NCBI GenBank assembly: GCA_016933055.1
Contig: JAFGBS010000033.1
Location: 60,001-92,000, forward strand
Direction: 5' to 3'
Source of the DNA: Promethearchaeota archaeon
Lineage (GTDB): Archaea > Asgardarchaeota > Lokiarchaeia > Sigyniarchaeales > Promethearchaeaceae
DNA: 32,000 nt
Positions 5,533 to 22,375 of the stretch are shown here, in pieces. Under the pieces are notes generated by a model. It made no database searches and had not been told where the DNA came from. It worked only from the letters and a program-made list of their open reading frames with translations. A program made the position numbers and the translations under genes. The stretch's first letter is position 1. Each line of letters opens with the position of its first letter.

Positions 5533-8500
5533 ATGCGTGAAAAAAGGAAGAATATTCTTTATTTAAGTATATCTCTCGTTCTGATAGTATTGTTACCAAC
5601 CATGGCTGAATTCACAAACAATTTTTACACTACATCAATTTTTGATGAAGTTACTAATCCTTTTGATGGATCAGACTCAACACAAATTGATGAAAGGATT
5701 ACTATAATAAATGCTTCGCAATATAATGTATCTGAATATGCTTATTATAGATCACCTAAAACTGATATATTAATAAAAAATGAAAATCTTTCGATGGGAA
5801 TACCAAATAATTGGGAAACATCCGTACTTTCTTTATCTGTCCCGTCTGTTTTTGAAGCCCTGGAAATTTTTAATGACTATGGTTTAAATGGTGATTTTTC
5901 GGGTGGAACTGCAAATCCATGGGAATACTATACCACTCATTCTTGGTACAGTGGAATTCCCATGAGTGAGCCATATGCAAATTTTACGTATGATTCGTTA
6001 GATGAAAATGCATATGCAGATTTTTATGGAGGGAATAAAGGATTTCCCGTGAGAAGTGACTTCACGGAACCTGCTTTTTTTGGCGCTGCATCCACAACAA
6101 TTCCAGATTTCGATAAATCTGATTCAAATCTCGAATTCGGAGAATTGTATGAAGAAGAAACGACCGAATTTTCTATCAATGATGAATTTTTTGAGGACCC
6201 TGAATATAATGTAATTCTTGATCCCTATGGCGGATACCGGGGAAATTCAAAAGTCACAGGAAATTGGATTGCTGGAATTAATGCATTAGAAAATATAATT
6301 GATACAAGATGGTCTTTGTTGTATGGTTATGGTTCACCTAGTGTGTGCTTCAGTACTCCCTTTTACATTCCTTTTGAAGCTGATAGCGTATCAATCACTT
6401 TTCGTTGGAGTGTCGAAAATTTAGGCTATGAATATGCTGATGATTTTTTGGTAGCTTCAAGGATTAATCATCAGTATATTAATGGTAGTGTAGGATTATA
6501 TGGAGAAGATTATTCCGTAGATACTCTTGATTACACTGTTTTAGAATATGATGGTACTAGATCAGGATATGGAAGCGGAGACATAAGGAGCCATGAGTAC
6601 TGGGAGAGAACTTATAACATTACTGAGTTATTAGGACCATATGGATATCATGCAGGATGGCATACTCTCGATTTTGGTATTGCTCTATTGAGTCCAGATA
6701 GCACCGATGATGATGTTATTGTTAATTGGGACTATATTATGATCAATGCTACTCATTATGATTGGTATAAATCCGCAGAATTAAATTTTGAATTTCTTTG
6801 GGAAGATTTAGGGAGCACCGACCCTAATGGAAATCTCGCATTTTCCATATACATTGGAGAAGAGGGAACAGATAATTTCATGAGATATTTTATTGGATAT
6901 AGCACCCAATTACAAGAAGGTAGTTGGAATGAAGCGAGTATAATTCTTCCTCAACACTATCACAAAGCTTTTGAAGTAGATACCTTCAATTTTTTTGTGG
7001 GAATGGAAGATGCTGGACCATTAGTAGGCCCTCCTGAAACAACTGTTGGATTTTACCGAAGATTAACCGTAGATAATTTCTACTTAACCGTTAATTTTGA
7101 CCTAGGTCCCCCTGAAACTTTGGGATTAGAAATGAAACTTAATGATGGAACTAATTGGATGCAAGTCAATAGTACAAACGAGATTTATACTGAAATCCAA
7201 TCTACCACTTTAGAGGTGCAGTTTAATTTAACTACCAATCCTATATCAGATTCATACATTCGGTTTCAAGCTTATATAGTAGCGAAAAAATTTTCTGAAC
7301 ATCAAGCATTTTCAACAGTTAGTATTCACTCATTTAATGACCTATCTGCGCTGTGGAACACAACCTATAACAATACAGAGTCTGTCAATGAATTTGATGA
7401 CCCTTCCTTGTTGGGTGCAAATTCTAAATTTCTACTTTACTTATTGCGATTTGAAAACCTTCCAGCTTTCGATGGGATGGGTGACAATTCTAACGATTGG
7501 AATGTATACCGAGCAGTGGACCCAAATGCACGTGATCAAACCCTCCGGATTATAAAAAATAGTAATGATCCTTTTCTTCAGAACATTACGATATATAACG
7601 CTACGTCAGGGAATCGAGGATCTCTTACACGAGGTTTATGGGAGTTAGATTCAAGTCAGGTTAATTATATGGTTAATGGAAGTCTCTATCTTGATGGTGG
7701 GATCAATAACGAGATATATTATAATGGGGACCTTGCAGAATATCATTTATATGTTAGAAATTCCAGTGGAATTTTTGGAAACTACAAAACTCAAATTTGG
7801 AATGCCACGTTGAATACAACAACGAATTTTCCAAAATACTATTCCAATGTAAATAACGCTACGTATGATTGGACGGTCTTTGATGAGGGAGTAGGATTAT
7901 ACCGGTTGTATAATCTTTGGAATGATACAAATTCCTTAAATCAGACTCGTAGACTTGGATGGTATCGGGACACTTTCGAAGTCTGGCGGCATACCACCGC
8001 TTCAATTCTTGAGGGGACGCTGGGAGTCACTGTAAGCTCAGGCGAATCTGCAGTCTATCATATTCAGTTTAATCAGACTAGTGTTGGTACCTCCGGTGTC
8101 ACTGGTGCGCATATATATGCGTATAATGCAAGTTCTGGTAATTTATGGGGTAGAGATATTCCTCCTTATGTATATCTATTAGATTATTTAACTGATGATT
8201 CTGGAGGCGCCTACACAATCGCCCTGAAAACGATTTCTGTCCCAACTGGAAGCTATCAAGTCAATTTTACTATCTACAAAGCCTTTCATGAAATTTTTAT
8301 AACATTGAATACGGGACTGACGATTACAGGTGCCTTGGGAAGTATGGATATAACCTATAATTCGGGAGCTTTTATCTATCAAGCATCTCCCACAAGATTA
8401 TATTTGGACTCAAATAATATCCCCTACGTAAATGATTCTACAAATTCAGTTATCGAAATAACCTTGGAGGATTCTACTAGCAGTGCACGACTAAGGGATG

Positions 8501-17228: not shown

Positions 17229-19163
17229 ATGAATTTCCATAAATCCAATAAAACTGAAAAGACCCAACTGAAACAGCGCATTTCTCAACTGGAAGAGGAG
17301 TTGTCTTTATATAAAAAGAAATTAATGCACCATCAAATCCTCACATCCACCAAAAATATAAACAACGCATTAGATGTCTCCAATGCTCCGATCTTTAGCG
17401 TAGATAATCATGGAAATATAAATATTTGGAATCAAGGAATTGCTCGAATCACTGGTTATTCATTTGATGACGTAGGCGGATTGAATATTGAGAATTTTAT
17501 TGAAAAAAAAAAGAAGTATCACACAAAACATATCATCAAACGTATCTTAAAGGGAGAAAAACTTTCTTTTGAGGAAATTGCCATTAAAACTAGTATCGAT
17601 ACTGAAGTTCATATACTCTCAAATCCAACCCCAATTAAGGACGATGATGGAACCATCATTGGATGTATTTTTATCGGTCAAGATATAACGGAAAGAAAGC
17701 TTATTGCCGCAGCACTTAGGGAAAGTGAAAATTTTTATCGCAGAATTACGGAAAATTCTTCAGATTTTATTCTTATTTTCAGTTCCACTCAACACATCGA
17801 TTATATAAGCCCTTCTGTCACTAATATCTTAGGATATACCATTGAAGAGTTCATCGAACTAAATTTATCAGATTTAATTTTACCAGATGATTATAAATCG
17901 TTTAATGCGGCTATGCGGAAATTTATCTCCAATCAGATTTTTGAACATATCGTCGATCTTCATATAAGACATAAAGATGGGACTTGGCGAGTCATTGAAT
18001 GCGTTGCTCAAAATTATCTTGATGATCCTATTCTCAACGGAATCGTGTTACGCTCTCGTAATGTGACTGAACGAAGAGAAATGGAAGAAATTTTAGAATT
18101 TGAACGAAATCAATTATTTACACTTTTTGATAGTATACCCAGTGCAATTTATATAGCTGATCCCATAGATTATGACGTATTATATGCAAATCTAACAGTA
18201 AGAAAAACTCTAGGGTACAATCCCGTGGGTGAAAAATGTCATAAGGTGTTTTTCGACTTAGAACTTCCATGTCCTGATTGTACAAACAAGGATTTGTTCG
18301 AAAAAGATGGGAAACCGATGAATTATATTTTTCAAAATCCAAAATTCAATCGCACCTACATGATTCTTGACCAATTCATCAAATGGCTAGATGGGAGAAC
18401 AGTACGCTTTGAAGTAGCTACTGACATAACTGAATTAAAGCAAACTCAGAAAGAATTGGAAACTAAAAATATGCTATTGCAACAAAAAAATGAAGAGTTA
18501 GAAAATTTCGCCTATTTTGCATCTCATGATCTTCCTGAACCTCTTAGAATGGTAAGTACGTATCTTTCTTTATTTGAGCGCAAATATAAAGAAAACTTAG
18601 ATGAAAAAGCAGATCTATACATTCATTACGCGGTCGATGGAGCAAATCGGATGAATGAAATGATTAAAGCATTACTCAAATACTCTAGAGTAGATAAAGA
18701 GCAAAACTTCTGTGAATTTGATGTAAATCAAAAAATTAGTGAAGCCCTTAACAATATCAAAATGTTGATCGAAGATTCCGGTGCAAAGATTACAATTGGA
18801 GAGATGCCGCAAATTTATGGGGAACCGATTTTGTTTACACAAGTTATCCAAAATCTTGTATCAAATGCAATTAAATTTTCAGATGAAAACCCAGAAATCG
18901 TAATTTCTGTGAAAAATCTTGAACATGAATGGGAATTTTCTGTAAAAGATAATGGTATTGGAATTGATAAACGATATTTTGAACAAATCTTCAATTTTAA
19001 ACGTTTACATCCACGAGATGAATATCCTGGGAGTGGAATTGGTTTACCATTATGTAAAAAAATTATCACCAATCATAACGGTCGTATCTGGTTGGAATCA
19101 AAACTATCCAAAGGCACGACATTTTATTTCATTATCCCAAAAAACTTGAGGAGAATAAATTGA
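17229..19163 (+). CDS. Cytoplasmic PAS-PAS-PAS sensor histidine kinase
   Basis: Three PAS/PAC repeats ending in QDITE, RNVTE and TDITE; H-box FASHDLPEPLR (His433); N-box QNLVSNAIKF; G1 VKDNGIG; G2 GSGIGL. No TM helix. Confidence 0.93.
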   Translation: MNFHKSNKTEKTQLKQRISQLEEELSLYKKKLMHHQILTSTKNINNALDVSNAPIFSVDNHGNINIWNQGIARITGYSFDDVGGLNIENFIEKKKKYHTKHIIKRILKGEKLSFEEIAIKTSIDTEVHILSNPTPIKDDDGTIIGCIFIGQDITERKLIAAALRESENFYRRITENSSDFILIFSSTQHIDYISPSVTNILGYTIEEFIELNLSDLILPDDYKSFNAAMRKFISNQIFEHIVDLHIRHKDGTWRVIECVAQNYLDDPILNGIVLRSRNVTERREMEEILEFERNQLFTLFDSIPSAIYIADPIDYDVLYANLTVRKTLGYNPVGEKCHKVFFDLELPCPDCTNKDLFEKDGKPMNYIFQNPKFNRTYMILDQFIKWLDGRTVRFEVATDITELKQTQKELETKNMLLQQKNEELENFAYFASHDLPEPLRMVSTYLSLFERKYKENLDEKADLYIHYAVDGANRMNEMIKALLKYSRVDKEQNFCEFDVNQKISEALNNIKMLIEDSGAKITIGEMPQIYGEPILFTQVIQNLVSNAIKFSDENPEIVISVKNLEHEWEFSVKDNGIGIDKRYFEQIFNFKRLHPRDEYPGSGIGLPLCKKIITNHNGRIWLESKLSKGTTFYFIIPKNLRRIN

Positions 19164-19600
19164 TTAGACGCACAGAAATCCTTTTGATTGATGATGATCC
19201 TGAGGATATAATGCTATTTACAAATCTGATAGAAGAATTTGATTCTCATATTAATCTTAAAATTGCACAAAACTATGTGGATGCGGTAGATCTTCTGTTT
19301 CAAAAACATTTCGATGAGATCCAGTCAAAACCCCATATAATTCTGTTAGAATTAACGATCTCAAATCATAAAGGTATACAGTTACTAAAATCCATAAAAG
19401 AACATTCCGAATATAGGAAAATACCCGTATTAGTGGTAACAAAGTCAAACAATTCCCATGATATATGGAATAGTTATGACTACAATGTAAATGCATACAT
19501 TCAGAAACCCAAATCCAAAGAGCGATATTTAAGTCTAATAAGTATAATGCTCAAATTTTGGATGGAAATGGTTTCCATACCAGATTATACATGGAGCTGA
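19160..19600 (+). CDS. Single-domain response regulator (Rcp1-like) with the phospho-acceptor Asp replaced by Glu
   Basis: TTG start overlapping the kinase stop. ILLIDDD, IILLELT (E at 19349-19351 in place of D), VVTKS, NAYIQKP. Confidence 0.85.
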   Translation: MIRRTEILLIDDDPEDIMLFTNLIEEFDSHINLKIAQNYVDAVDLLFQKHFDEIQSKPHIILLELTISNHKGIQLLKSIKEHSEYRKIPVLVVTKSNNSHDIWNSYDYNVNAYIQKPKSKERYLSLISIMLKFWMEMVSIPDYTWS

Positions 19601-20076
19601 TTGAAATTAAACCATTAAAATCAATATTACTAGTCGAGGATAATCCTGCCCATGTGTTAATCACCAAGGAAGCGTTTTCAGAAGTTAAACTAGAAAATGA
19701 CAACTATGATATCGAAATCATAGATGTTCGAGATGGTATTGAAGCATTAAAACTCCTTAGCAAATTTAAATCTCAAGGTAGTCTGCCAGATCTCATCTTG
19801 ATAGATATTAACATTCCCTTATTGAATGGTCTGGATTTATTAAAAAAAATAAAATCCCATAAGCATTATAAGCGCATTCCCTCCATTATAATCACTAATG
19901 GGTCACGCATACATGAAATAGAAGACGCTTATAAACGATATGCAAATGCATTTATCATCAAACCATTTAGGTATGATGATTTTCTGGAAATGATCCAAGT
20001 AATGAAACTCTTTTGGTTTGAATATGCAACCATACCGATAAACACGAATGGGAGATTGAACAAGAATGAGGGATGA
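19591..20076 (+). CDS. Single-domain response regulator (Rcp1-like)
   Basis: ILLVEDNP, DLILIDINIP..NG with the Asp intact, IITNGS, ANAFIIKP. The start is placed at ATG 19591 rather than 19558 because the receiver fold begins just after it and it overlaps the upstream stop. Confidence 0.9.
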   Translation: MELIEIKPLKSILLVEDNPAHVLITKEAFSEVKLENDNYDIEIIDVRDGIEALKLLSKFKSQGSLPDLILIDINIPLLNGLDLLKKIKSHKHYKRIPSIIITNGSRIHEIEDAYKRYANAFIIKPFRYDDFLEMIQVMKLFWFEYATIPINTNGRLNKNEG

Positions 20077-22375
20077 GAAAATTAAAGTTTTATTAATTGA
20101 AGATAATCCTGGTGATGCTTTTCTCATTCAAGAATATTTGGAAGAAATACAGAATGCGACATTTATGGTAACTTTCGTAGATAGTCTCGCAAAAGGGATC
20201 GCCGAATATCAGATGAAAGAATTTGACGTTGTACTCTTAGATTTGACTTTACCAGATAGCACCGGGTTTGATACATTCAGAGAAGCGTTCGTCCACTTAC
20301 ATGATATTCCCATCATTATTTTATCAGGACTAATCGAGGAATTAGCAATACATGCTGTGCAAGAAGGAGCACAAGATTATATTCCAAAAGGTAATTTTGA
20401 TGCACATACCTTATATCGTTCCATAAAATATGCTATCGAACGGAATAATCTTCAAAGGAAATTACGAGATTCTGAACAACAGTTTCGAGTAATTGCAGAA
20501 AATTCTTTGATGGGCATTTTATTGATGGAAAGTGGGGAAATAAAATACATGAACAATAAAATGGAAGATATTACAGGATTCACCTTCGAAGAAGCACAGC
20601 TCTGGGAGCGATATCATTTTGCAAAGCATATTTATCCCGATGATCGTCATTTAATCGAAGAATTGCGAGAAGACTTTTATAATCCGAAATCGGAATTCAA
20701 GCGTAATTTGATCATCCGTTGGATGAAGAAAGACTCCGAAATAATATATTGTGAAATATTTATGGGACGTGCACCCCATTTAGGGGAAAAATCCGTACTG
20801 ATATCTGCTATTGAAGTAACTGATAGGATCTTAACTGAACAAGCGTTAGCATCAGAAACCGAGCGACTTTCTGTTACTTTAGACAGTATCGGAGATGCGG
20901 TCATTGCAACCGATATTTATGGAATCATTAATATTATTAATCCCACAGCTGAATATCTCACCGGTTGGCCCCAAGACACGGCCATAGGAATGCCTTTGCA
21001 AAACATTTTTCAAGTCACGCTAGAAAAAAATGAGAATCAAACCATAGAATTTATGGACACGGTGATCAAGACCCAAGACGTTTATGAGGTAACAGAACCA
21101 TTACTCTTAAAGGCAAAATCAAAAGAAAACCACATTATTCAAGCCTCTGCTTCCCCAATAAAAGATAAAGATGACAACATTATTGGTATGATTCTAGTAT
21201 TTCGAGATATCACCGAGCAACGAAAATATAATATGAACCTAATGAAAGTCCAAAAATTGGAAGCATTAGGAATATTAGCGGGGGGTATCGCGCATGATTT
21301 CAATAATATTCTTCAAGCAATTCTTGGTAGCATTTCTTTAGCGCGTTTAGAATTACCAGCAGAATCTGATGCGAGTAAAATATTATTTTCAGCAGAGAAG
21401 GCATCAGTCCGAGCAAAAGCATTGACTAATCAACTTTTAGCTTTTGCTAAAGGAGGAGTGCCAGTCAAGAAGCCCTTATCTTTGGACGTGATTATCAAGG
21501 AGACTGCATCATTTTGTCTGATGGGTTCAAAAAATCGATGCGTTTTTGATATAGATCAGGATTTATGGTTGGTAGAAGGAGATGGAGGCATGCTCAGTCA
21601 AATGATCAACAATATTGTAATTAATGCCGATCAAGCGATGGTAATGCCTAATCGGGGGACTATCCGAATTAATGCTATGAATTTTGATACAGGCCTCCAA
21701 TCTGATGTAAATCCGCAGTTAAATGGCAAATATGTTAAAATTGAAATCCAAGATCAAGGGGGAGGAATTCCCAACTCCATAATACATAGTATTTTTGACC
21801 CTTATTTTACTACAAAACCAGACGGAAATGGTTTAGGATTAACAATGAGTTTTACGATTGCTAAAAACCATGGAGGTACTATTGACGTGGATTCTAAGGT
21901 CGGGAAAGGCACCAAATTCACGATTTACATACCCGCATCCAGTGAAACGAAATTTACGGAGGAACTTGTAGTCTTAGATCCCGAGCTGCAGAAGGGAAAA
22001 ATATTAATTATGGATGATGAAGAACCCATCCGCAAGATTTTAGGAGGAATGCTGAAGAAACTGGGATATGAAGTCGAGTTTGCTGAAAATGGCGAAGAAG
22101 CCATTACTAAATACACAGCGGTTTACAAATCCTCCAAATCCTTTCTGGCTGTTATTATGGATTTAACTATTCCTGGTAGTATGGGGGGAAAAGAAGCAAT
22201 TCGGAAATTACTCAAAATAGATCCAAATGTAAAAGCAATCGTGTCAAGTGGTTATTCTTCAGATCCAATTATGGCCGAATTTTCGAAATTTGGGTTTATC
22301 GGTGTATTATCTAAACCCTATACAATCGTAGAATTACAAAAAACTCTTTCTCGATCTTTAAATCATATTTCCTAA
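20066..22375 (+). CDS. Hybrid histidine kinase REC-PAS-PAS-HisKA-HATPase-REC
   Basis: N-terminal receiver (LLIEDNP, LLDLTLP), two PAS domains, H-box AGGIAHDFNNIL, NIVINADQA, QDQGGGI, FDPYFTTK..GNGLGL, C-terminal receiver (IMDDE, IMDLTIP, SKPY). Confidence 0.93.
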   Translation: MRDEKIKVLLIEDNPGDAFLIQEYLEEIQNATFMVTFVDSLAKGIAEYQMKEFDVVLLDLTLPDSTGFDTFREAFVHLHDIPIIILSGLIEELAIHAVQEGAQDYIPKGNFDAHTLYRSIKYAIERNNLQRKLRDSEQQFRVIAENSLMGILLMESGEIKYMNNKMEDITGFTFEEAQLWERYHFAKHIYPDDRHLIEELREDFYNPKSEFKRNLIIRWMKKDSEIIYCEIFMGRAPHLGEKSVLISAIEVTDRILTEQALASETERLSVTLDSIGDAVIATDIYGIINIINPTAEYLTGWPQDTAIGMPLQNIFQVTLEKNENQTIEFMDTVIKTQDVYEVTEPLLLKAKSKENHIIQASASPIKDKDDNIIGMILVFRDITEQRKYNMNLMKVQKLEALGILAGGIAHDFNNILQAILGSISLARLELPAESDASKILFSAEKASVRAKALTNQLLAFAKGGVPVKKPLSLDVIIKETASFCLMGSKNRCVFDIDQDLWLVEGDGGMLSQMINNIVINADQAMVMPNRGTIRINAMNFDTGLQSDVNPQLNGKYVKIEIQDQGGGIPNSIIHSIFDPYFTTKPDGNGLGLTMSFTIAKNHGGTIDVDSKVGKGTKFTIYIPASSETKFTEELVVLDPELQKGKILIMDDEEPIRKILGGMLKKLGYEVEFAENGEEAITKYTAVYKSSKSFLAVIMDLTIPGSMGGKEAIRKLLKIDPNVKAIVSSGYSSDPIMAEFSKFGFIGVLSKPYTIVELQKTLSRSLNHIS

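What the first reader, a model, noticed from the sequence alone, without database searches (positions are those of the whole stretch)
5533..11340. Giant surface receptor-like protein wired to a cytoplasmic longin-like domain and winged helices
Seen: a signal/anchor, an ectodomain of about 1590 aa (jelly-roll-like N-terminal part, then roughly 100-aa Ig-like beta repeats) with about 40 sequons almost all outside the membrane, one TM helix with positive-inside PRRKKR, and about 310 cytoplasmic residues. The cytoplasmic part has a longin-type pattern (ILIL.K.GL.VFSRSF; ETLISGFLSAI.SFG.EI; YKQFKIIV; LLLK) and two winged-helix-like segments. Known: longin and roadblock domains are small-GTPase regulators and platforms in eukaryotic trafficking (TRAPP, MON1-CCZ1, AP sigma/mu) and are expanded in Asgard archaea. 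Inference: a one-component transmembrane receptor that passes cell-contact or glycan binding to a small GTPase or to DNA, a possible archaeal route to receptor-GTPase signalling.
Basis: partly seen in the sequence, partly recalled or inferred. Interest (0 to 1): 0.72.

Follow-up and report, generated by a model that had tools for sequence, protein, structure and literature searches.

The report
Asgard surface glycoprotein with longin tail
This gene of a Loki-type Asgard archaeon encodes a 1935-residue, probably sugar-coated surface protein whose inner tail has the longin fold that eukaryotes use to dock small GTPases, followed by two winged-helix-like units; the layout is real and common across Asgard archaea, but what the tail binds is untested.

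Summary
Window 5533-11340 (+) is one open frame of 1935 aa. It has an N-terminal signal-like segment and about 1560 outer residues with 42 N-x-S/T sequons (21 expected, z 5.4). One TM helix is followed by PRRKKR and a 311-aa inner tail.

AlphaFold2 on 80 homologues models the tail at pLDDT 91. Residues 1647-1780 form a complete longin fold. The best matches are synbindin/TRAPPC4 (Z 13.5), Trs23, Sec22b and sedlin, then AP and COPI small subunits; roadblocks score lower and cover less. The last 80 residues are a winged helix (Z 9.5). The unit between them is winged-helix-like but was not matched on its own.

The outer part has CBM/MAM/Eph-like jelly rolls and a Big_1/MG-type Ig stalk.

The tail module gives 745 protein clusters. 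It occurs in 190 of 201 sampled genomes of the phylum, and in 136 of the 150 best clusters it follows a TM helix directly. Full-length orthologues exist in P. syntrophicum MK-D1 ("carbohydrate porin") and L. ossiferum ("hypothetical").

A related longin is fused to a small GTPase in the same genome. GTPase docking is therefore the leading reading, but it is unproven. DNA binding looks unlikely.

The scan had already found this module on other DNA of this genome. I found no published description.

The parts
5533..11340 (+). whole gene, 1935 aa, type-I membrane glycoprotein candidate
   Evidence: single ORF; 22 collinear orthologues of 1898-2145 aa
5533..5619 (+). N-terminal signal-like segment (aa 1-29: basic n-region, hydrophobic core, TMA|EF)
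   Evidence: hydropathy; N-terminal hydrophobic segments in all the orthologue N-termini printed; cleavage not testable here
5698..7452 (+). beta-sandwich head (aa 56-640), tandem jelly rolls
   Evidence: AF2 pLDDT 81; Foldseek matches to the reelin N-terminal region and tandem CBM22
6157..6759 (+). best-defined jelly roll (aa 209-409), CBM/MAM/Eph-LBD-like; best conserved part of the head
   Evidence: VIA Z 11.9 to CBM70 (136 aligned, rmsd 2.7); Z 10.7 to RPTPmu MAM; Z 10.5 to EphA2 and EphB2; conservation profile
7453..8808 (+). middle ectodomain (aa 641-1092), conserved among orthologues, fold not determined here
   Evidence: about 30% identity to orthologues, occupancy above 0.94; not modelled
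8809..10302 (+). stalk of about five Ig-like repeats of ~105 aa (aa 1093-1590)
   Evidence: hhalign self-matches of the last repeat at aa ~1093, 1181, 1298 and 1406; Big_1 at aa 1509-1582; Big_1, Big_3_5, MG4 and MG2 in orthologues
10312..10404 (+). transmembrane helix (aa 1594-1624)
   Evidence: hydropathy; a TM lies directly before the longin in 136 of 150 representative relatives
10405..10470 (+). basic juxtamembrane helix (aa 1625-1646, PRRKKR..., net charge +6) ending in the conserved D-x-E-N motif
   Evidence: AF2 helix continuous with the TM; P11, D29 and N32 at least 90% conserved; charge
10471..10872 (+). longin domain (aa 1647-1780)
   Evidence: AF2 pLDDT mostly above 90 apart from the alpha1-beta3 loop (about 60), topology b-b-a-b-b-b-a-a; Foldseek top 23 hits are all longins; VIA Z 13.5 synbindin, 13.2 Trs23, 12.8 Sec22b, 12.3 sedlin
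10891..11091 (+). first winged-helix-like unit (aa 1787-1853)
   Evidence: AF2 helices and short strands in winged-helix order; present in 140 of 150 relatives by HMM; no fold match of its own
11098..11337 (+). second winged helix (aa 1856-1935)
   Evidence: VIA Z 9.5 TubR (74 aligned, rmsd 2.3), Z 9.4 MarR Rv2887 and Rio2 wHTH; present in 51 of 150 relatives

Best explanation
A type-I, probably heavily N-glycosylated surface protein of a Lokiarchaeial (Promethearchaeota) cell. Shown: outside the cell it has lectin/MAM-like jelly-roll domains on a long Ig-like stalk; a single TM helix continues into a basic juxtamembrane helix; inside it has a longin domain and two winged-helix-type units. Inferred: the tail is a membrane-tethered docking platform. 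Its longin helix alpha1 is conserved on all faces. In known longins and roadblocks this helix forms the dimer interface and the GTPase-binding face. I propose that it binds a cytoplasmic partner, most likely one of the genome's many small GTPases or a longin/roadblock partner that carries one. The winged helices would add protein-protein contacts. The protein would then tie a fixed point on the cell surface (an adhesion or glycan-binding site) to GTPase-controlled machinery under the membrane. The direction of information flow, outside-in signalling or inside-out positioning, is unknown.
For: Architecture.

Longin fold: complete, with matches well above background. Z is 11-13.5 over about 115-130 aligned residues at rmsd 2.6-3.1. 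Roadblocks reach about Z 10 and stop at tail residue ~140.

Purifying selection on the tail: orthologues are 40-62% identical in the tail and 24-42% in the ectodomain, and the longin part is the best conserved 100-aa block.

Helix alpha1: all 17 consecutive residues (tail 59-75) score 5-9 on a 0-9 conservation scale and 15 of them score 6 or more. Conservation therefore covers both the buried and the exposed faces.

Module behaviour: 745 clusters. A TM precedes the longin in 136 of 150. The module was found in 190 of 201 genomes of the phylum and in 86 of 86 high-quality ones, usually in 5-11 places each. The four anchored paralogues of this genome share only the last Ig repeat, the TM and the tail.

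Link to GTPases: a 294-aa longin plus small-GTPase fusion in the same genome has a longin 32% identical to this one, including the alpha1 motif. Full-length relatives of that fusion occur in 53 of 61 sampled genomes. The genome has 46 Ras-family and 12 roadblock matches.

Established knowledge: longin/roadblock dimers are platforms for small GTPases and use the central helix to dimerise (PMC10933270, PMC3747258).
Against: No partner was identified. There is no GTPase or roadblock gene in the window and no conserved downstream gene among 26 orthologous loci. Longin domains also have roles unrelated to GTPases, for example in SNAREs and coat subunits, and the best structural matches include those classes as well. 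The similarity to the GTPase-fused longin is moderate (32% over 104 aa). That fusion shows that such longins can work with a GTPase in cis; it does not show that this one binds a GTPase in trans. No expression or glycosylation data were obtained.
Confidence: 0.5

Rival explanations
1. Structural coat or adhesion protein whose tail is a sorting or anchoring handle, not a GTPase device. In this reading the longin and winged helices are recognised by coat-, ESCRT- or cytoskeleton-type proteins, much as the Sec22 longin is read by Sec23/24 and tandem winged helices build ESCRT-II. That recognition would place or hold the glycoprotein in the envelope or in protrusions.
For: Orthologues keep their length and collinearity (1898-2145 aa), as expected of a structural envelope component. 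L. ossiferum lacks an ordered S-layer and shows complex surface densities on a single membrane (PMC9834061). SNARE and coat longins rank as high as the TRAPP longins. Sibling tails replace the second winged helix with a ~200-aa helical repeat that gives weak TPR/MIT hits, and MIT domains bind ESCRT-III.
Against: The MIT/TPR hits are at or below Pfam thresholds and lie in paralogous subfamilies, not in this protein. ESCRT-II-type winged helices did not appear in the fold lists, but those lists were filled by longins, so this point is inconclusive. No coat or ESCRT gene lies nearby.
Confidence: 0.3
2. Membrane-tethered transcription regulator: the C-terminal winged helix binds DNA, directly or after proteolytic release, in response to events at the ectodomain.
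For: The last 80 aa match MarR, TubR and other DNA-binding wHTH proteins at Z 9-9.5.
Against: Net charge of the two winged-helix units is near zero across the family (medians +1 and 0; this protein -3 and +1). They are the least conserved part of the tail. The second unit is missing in about two thirds of relatives. Winged helices are also common protein-protein modules. The weak sequence hint is to the CheF C-terminal domain, not to a regulator.
Confidence: 0.07
3. The inner domain senses a small ligand. The longin fold belongs to the wider PAS/GAF/profilin-like group, so the domain could report an intracellular metabolite or bind actin as profilin does.
For: Fold kinship of longin, roadblock and profilin (PMC10933270); PAS/GAF kinship noted in PMC4917890.
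Against: None of the top 50 rows in three fold searches is a PAS, GAF or profilin structure. The two C-terminal helices are the longin arrangement.
Confidence: 0.05

Closest known systems
TRAPP longin subunits (synbindin/TRAPPC4/Trs23, sedlin/TRAPPC2, Bet5)
   Same: Closest fold matches: Z 13.5, 13.2 and 12.3 with 119-126 aligned residues at rmsd 2.8. They share the full b-b-a-b-b-b-a-a topology.
   Different: Sequence identity is only 10-13% and there is no Pfam match. TRAPP longins are soluble subunits of a Rab GEF complex. This domain is covalently tied to a TM helix and a giant ectodomain and is followed by winged helices.
Longin SNAREs (Sec22b, VAMP7, Ykt6)
   Same: A cytosolic longin domain on a single-pass membrane protein; Z 11.2-12.8.
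   Different: SNAREs are tail-anchored, with the longin at the N-terminus, a SNARE motif and almost nothing on the far side of the membrane. Here the longin follows the TM, there is no SNARE motif, and 1560 residues lie outside.
Asgard soluble longins and longin-GTPase fusions (e.g. PDB 8YQG Lokiarchaeota Roadblock-Longin protein; the 294-aa fusion at G000:C17:468101-468982)
   Same: Same phylum and same fold (8YQG Z 10.2-10.4). The fusion's longin is 32% identical and shares the alpha1 motif.
   Different: Those proteins are cytosolic and short. This family is membrane-anchored behind large glycosylated ectodomains.
NPRL2/NPRL3 (GATOR1) and 'NPRL2-like longin' Asgard proteins
   Same: A longin followed by a small C-terminal domain. 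Earlier notes of this scan read the related soluble adaptors this way.
   Different: NPRL2 and NPRL3 were not among the rows listed in any fold search here, and there is no sequence or Pfam match. Membership is left open.
Metazoan type-I receptors with a MAM or Eph-type head on an Ig/FN3 stalk (RPTPmu, Eph receptors)
   Same: Overall layout: jelly-roll head, beta-sandwich stalk, one TM and a folded inner domain. The head matches MAM and Eph LBD at Z 10.1-10.7.
   Different: The jelly-roll fold is equally close to bacterial CBMs (Z 9-12), so no specific kinship can be claimed. The inner domain is a longin, not a kinase or phosphatase.

Membership tests
Longin domain (structural superfamily) | beta-beta-alpha-beta-beta-beta-alpha-alpha topology, with two C-terminal helices packed on the sheet and no roadblock-type N-terminal helix | tested here: met
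   DSSP order E33-40, E45-50, H58-79, E90-94, E97-103, E107-113, H119-141, H150-166 in a model with pLDDT 91. Longin hits align to tail residue 162-167; roadblock hits end at 134-142.
Longin domain (structural superfamily) | significant structural similarity to solved longins over the whole domain | tested here: met
   Foldseek E 1e-4 to 1e-3, probability 1.00, top 23 hits all longins. VIA Z 11-13.5 with 113-130 aligned residues.
Pfam longin-type sequence families (Sybindin, Sedlin_N, Longin, Clat_adaptor_s, Fuz_longin_1) | match to the family HMM above the gathering score | tested here: not met
   No Pfam or NCBIfam family at E <= 1 on aa 1600-1935, apart from a chance-level FadR hit. Not a sequence member of any curated family.
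Small-GTPase platform/regulator (GEF, GAP or scaffold) | binds a small GTPase through the longin dimer face | not testable with these tools
   Indirect only: a homologous longin is fused to a GTPase.
Longin/roadblock dimer | homo- or heterodimer through alpha1 and the edge strand | tested here: inconclusive
   alpha1 is conserved on all faces. The one co-fold job gave no verdict (see Tried and rejected).
Winged helix-turn-helix DNA-binding regulators (MarR-like) | winged-helix fold | tested here: met
   aa 1862-1935: Z 9.5 TubR, 9.4 Rv2887, 9.1 YtfH.
Winged helix-turn-helix DNA-binding regulators (MarR-like) | conserved basic DNA-reading surface | tested here: not met
   Family median net charge 0 (WH2) and +1 (WH1); low column conservation.
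NPRL2/NPRL3-like proteins | NPRL2-type longin plus NPRL-specific C-terminal domain | tested here: inconclusive
   Not among the listed rows; no sequence match. The lists are capped at 50 rows and filled by single-domain longins.
Archaeal N-glycosylated surface proteins | Sec signal, sequon-rich outer domain, C-terminal TM anchor | tested here: met
   (z 5.4; the bias is shared by 19 orthologues). Actual glycosylation is not testable here.
Bacterial Ig-like group 1 (Big_1) repeats | Pfam PF02369 above the gathering score | tested here: met
   37.4 bits against a cut-off of 34.9 at aa 1509-1582; 19 of 22 orthologues.

The most novel reading that the evidence does not exclude
Asgard archaea carry a phylum-wide family of single-pass surface glycoproteins whose own cytoplasmic tails are TRAPP/SNARE-type longin platforms. 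These tails would recruit small GTPases, or coat/ESCRT parts, to defined spots of the plasma membrane. That would make them a prokaryotic forerunner of receptor- or cargo-driven GTPase recruitment in eukaryotic trafficking, and a direct wire between cell-cell contact and the 'eukaryotic signature' machinery.
Probability: 0.3. Interest if true: 0.85.

Novelty: new variant of a known kind. Interest (0 to 1): 0.62.

Why it matters
Asgard genomes hold dozens of small GTPases, longins and roadblocks, but the cultured cells show no inner compartments, so it is unclear where these proteins act. A conserved, abundant family that fixes a longin platform to the inner face of the plasma membrane behind large adhesive ectodomains offers a concrete place for them to act. 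It also offers a short list of experiments, because orthologues exist in both cultured Lokiarchaeia: QEE16527.1 in MK-D1 and UYP48577.1 in L. ossiferum. If the tail recruits a GTPase or a coat, this would be the first defined surface-to-GTPase link in the closest archaeal relatives of eukaryotes. It would bear on models in which protrusions and cell contacts led to eukaryogenesis. If it does not, the protein is still a strong candidate for one of the 'complex surface densities' seen by cryo-tomography.

Tried and rejected
- **Homodimer co-fold.** Two copies of tail residues 12-321 with alignment A1 scored 0.18 against a mark of 0.42: no verdict, not used as evidence either way.
- **Expression.** The sequencing-run search lists no RNA holder. 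The only full holder is a sediment metagenome that may be the source of the DNA. No reads were laid.
- **Sequence families on the tail.** Pfam and NCBIfam gave nothing usable. The profile search against PDB sequences gave nothing below E 0.1; the weak CheF C-terminal hit (E 0.21) is a hint only.
- **The search for related loci with A1.** It was repeated with the 25 closest sequences.
- **Conserved operon partner.** None was found downstream in 26 orthologous loci. The upstream gene is divergent (hexapeptide transferase), and the downstream 7TM gene is convergent.
- **NPRL2/NPRL3 and ESCRT-II winged helices.** Neither appeared among the listed rows of the three fold searches on the tail. The lists are filled by longins, so neither is excluded.
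- **Protein-atlas feature search on the head.** Scores of 0.84-0.86 only, with a CBM_4_9 lead. The fold search superseded it.
- **Pfam on the remoter own-genome matches.** Only sub-threshold hits to HTH_47 and Fuz_longin_1.
- **Literature.** Six searches and seven papers consulted. None describes a TM-anchored longin tail on a large surface protein, and the orthologues' accession numbers occur in no held paper. The library lacks many subscription papers.
Full report
**1. The gene**

Window 5533-11340 (+) is one ORF of 1935 aa with no stop. The window is C10:60001-92000 of a 3.76-Mb, 36-contig genome that is 91% complete. GC is about 35%.

The relatives of the protein are nearly all labelled Promethearchaeota, that is Asgard archaea. 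They include Promethearchaeum syntrophicum MK-D1 and Lokiarchaeum ossiferum. The host is therefore a Loki-type Asgard archaeon. The DNA is held by a sediment metagenome.

**2. Topology and sequons**

Hydropathy finds only two hydrophobic segments:
- aa 6-29, a basic n-region and hydrophobic core ending T-M-A|E-F, which looks like a signal peptide;
- aa 1594-1624, followed by PRRKKR.

Of the 44 N-x-S/T sequons, 42 lie between the two segments. Shuffling that part gives 20.7 +/- 3.9 and never more than 33 (z 5.4). The tail has 2, with 1.7 expected. Nineteen orthologues show the same asymmetry: median 3.4 per 100 aa outside and 0.32 inside. This fits an outside-facing, N-glycosylated ectodomain and a cytoplasmic tail of 311 aa. 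Glycosylation itself is inferred.

**3. The tail**

Neither Pfam nor NCBIfam recognises aa 1600-1935, and neither does a profile search of PDB sequences.

A full HMMER scan of 1.84 billion cluster representatives found 745 clusters at E <= 1e-3 and 334 at E <= 1e-10.

AlphaFold2 was run on an 80-sequence alignment of these tails (A1). It gave mean pLDDT 91 and pTM 0.81. The model has these parts, in tail numbering (add 1614 for protein numbering):

| Tail residues | Element |
|---|---|
| 2-32 | helix continuous with the TM |
| 33-166 | beta-beta-alpha-beta-beta-beta-alpha-alpha |
| 173-239 | helix-rich unit with short strands |
| 242-320 | second such unit |

Fold searches on the model gave the following.
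- **Foldseek against the PDB.** The first 23 rows are all longins: COPI delta/zeta, AP sigma/mu, and the TRAPP subunits Bet5, Trs23 and sedlin. VAMP7, Mon1/Ccz1 and Fuzzy come further down. E is 1e-4 to 1e-3 and probability 1.00.
- **VIA-align over 48,161 representative chains.** Synbindin Z 13.5 (119 aligned, rmsd 2.8), sedlin 12.2, Sec22 12.0, AP-5 sigma 12.0, then VAMP7, AP-3/AP-2, SRX, Ykt6 and Lst4.
- **Second look at Foldseek's own matches.** Adds Trs23 in TRAPPIII-Ypt1 (13.2) and Sec22b (12.8).
- **Roadblocks** (MglB, LAMTOR, Asgard roadblocks) reach about Z 10 and cover only residues 28-142. The longins align through the two C-terminal helices to 162-167.

The domain is therefore a longin, not a roadblock.

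The last unit, tail residues 248-321, matches winged-helix proteins: TubR Z 9.5 (74 aligned, rmsd 2.3), MarR family 9.4-8.7, and the Rio2 wHTH 9.4. The middle unit has the helix/strand order of a winged helix without a full wing, but it got no match of its own. Weak indirect support comes from two places. An Asgard cluster that aligns over tail residues 32-248 has Pfam HTH_47 on half of its members. A soluble paralogue has a sub-threshold HTH_47 hit after its longin.

**4. The ectodomain**

AF2 of aa 28-640 with 22 orthologues gives pLDDT 81 and an all-beta model.

Residues 209-409 are a jelly roll. They match the CBM70 hyaluronan-binding module (Z 11.9, 136 aligned), the RPTPmu MAM domain (10.7), CBM16, the EphA2/EphB2/EphA3 ligand-binding domains (10.3-10.5), reelin, and many CBM4/22/27/35/61 modules. 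Foldseek's best rows are the multi-jelly-roll reelin fragments and tandem CBM22. This suggests two or three jelly rolls in series. The fold does not reveal the ligand.

The membrane-proximal part is an Ig-like stalk:
- Pfam Big_1 at aa 1509-1582;
- profile self-matches of that repeat at about aa 1093, 1181, 1298 and 1406;
- Big_1 in 19 of 22 orthologues, Big_3_5 in 11, MG4 in 8 and MG2 in 4.

Residues 641-1092 were not modelled.

**5. Family and distribution**

Twenty-two proteins of 1898-2145 aa align with this one from end to end. Identity is 24-42% in the ectodomain and 40-62% in the tail, apart from the most distant member, P0054, at 27%. The longin block is the best conserved 100-residue stretch.

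Two of the orthologues are the proteins of the cultured species:
- QEE16527.1 / WP_147663402.1 of MK-D1, named 'carbohydrate porin';
- UYP48577.1 (NEF87_004862) of L. ossiferum, named 'hypothetical protein' or 'Big-1 domain-containing'.

Public annotation therefore does not recognise the tail.

Among the 150 best representative clusters, 136 have a TM helix directly before the longin, behind 40 to 2500 outer residues. Most of the rest are short and may be cut gene calls. That last point is my inference.

The tails come in three forms:
- longin plus WH1 only, about 53 clusters;
- longin plus WH1 plus WH2, 51 clusters, including this protein;
- longin plus WH1 plus a ~200-aa helical extension, about 35 clusters. 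The extension gives weak TPR and MIT hits; the best MIT score is 29.9 bits against a cut-off of 30.

A profile of the tail finds matches at E <= 1e-8 in 190 of 201 sampled genomes of the phylum and in 86 of 86 high-quality ones, usually in 5-11 places per genome.

The pattern-limited scan of one genome per prokaryotic species returned 53 loci. Three bear non-Asgard labels: two contigs of one 'Bathyarchaeota' bin at 43-44% identity and one weak 'Thermoproteota' match. A number of others are labelled only 'uncultured archaeon'.

This genome has four anchored copies, of 1935, 1758, 1381 and 748 aa, plus one cut by a contig end. They are alike only from the last Ig repeat through the tail. The tail therefore behaves as a mobile module attached to different ectodomains. 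A polytopic membrane protein also ends in a related longin.

**6. What the tail may do**

Shown:
- It is a conserved longin fixed to the inner face of the membrane.
- Its helix alpha1 is conserved along 17 consecutive residues, so on the exposed faces too.
- The winged-helix units are less conserved, and their net charge is near neutral.

Known from the literature: longin and roadblock domains form dimeric platforms for small GTPases, and the central helix makes the dimer (PMC3747258; PMC10933270).

Found here:
- The same genome encodes a 294-aa protein with an N-terminal longin and a C-terminal small GTPase (Pfam Roc/Ras/Arf, with P-loop, DxxGQ and NKxD motifs).
- Its longin is 32% identical to this one over 104 residues and carries the same alpha1 motif.
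- Full-length relatives of this fusion occur in 53 of 61 sampled genomes. Longin-GTPase fusions in Asgard archaea are published.
- The genome has 46 Ras-family and 12 roadblock matches.

From these points I infer that the most likely role is docking of a small GTPase, or of a longin/roadblock partner, at the site of the surface protein.

This step is not shown. The window has no GTPase gene and the orthologues share no neighbour. The high-ranking SNARE and coat longins leave a sorting or anchoring role open, and the MIT/TPR-like extensions of sibling tails point the same way. A DNA-binding role is the weakest reading.

**7. Novelty**

Asgard longins, roadblocks and their GTPase fusions are catalogued. 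L. ossiferum is described as covered by complex surface proteins without an ordered S-layer. I found no paper that joins the two, and the orthologues' accession numbers appear in no held paper.

Earlier agents of this scan reported the same module on other pieces of this genome and on one other genome. Their NPRL2/3 comparison could not be confirmed or excluded here.

I rate the finding a new variant of a known kind. It has a well-supported structure, a wide distribution and an open function.

Noticed in passing
G000:C17:468101-468982 (-), locus L007:916-1800 (-): 294-aa longin plus small-GTPase fusion (Roc/Ras/Arf hits at aa 130-266). Its longin shares the alpha1 motif with the tail studied here. 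Full-length relatives occur in 53 of 61 sampled genomes of the phylum.
   Followed up: partly
relatives P0057, P0061, P0083, P0085, P0150 and others (alignment A4): A sibling subfamily of TM-longin-WH1 tails carries a conserved ~200-aa helical extension in place of the second winged helix. It gives weak TPR and MIT-domain hits (best MIT 29.9 bits against a cut-off of 30), a possible lead to ESCRT-III.
   Followed up: partly
window 11360-12142 (-): 260-aa seven-TM protein with no output domain, convergent with the giant gene and ending 19 bp after its stop. It has a weak HisKA_7TM hit (E 1.5e-4, below the cut-off). It is not conserved next to the orthologues.
   Followed up: partly
window 17229-22375 (+): Two-component cluster: PAS-rich histidine kinase (644 aa), two single-domain response regulators with overlapping frames, and a hybrid PAS kinase with receiver domains (769 aa).
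   Followed up: no
G000:C10:54938-55849 (+), about 5 kb before the window start: Roadblock and Ras-family matches in one 382-aa open frame, that is a roadblock-GTPase fusion.
   Followed up: no
G000:C5:78415-80670 (-): 751-aa polytopic membrane protein (ten or more hydrophobic segments) that ends in a longin related to the tail. This is another way of tethering the module to the membrane.
   Followed up: no
P0018 = QEE16527.1 / WP_147663402.1 (MK-D1): The orthologue in the cultured P. syntrophicum is annotated 'carbohydrate porin'. That name does not fit a single-pass protein with Ig-like and jelly-roll domains and a longin tail, so it is a likely misannotation.
   Followed up: partly
window 12408-16401: Two NAD-dependent epimerase/dehydratase genes, an HTH_10 regulator and a steroid 5-alpha-reductase-family membrane protein. 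These are possible sugar or lipid modification genes near the glycoprotein gene. No link was tested.
   Followed up: no
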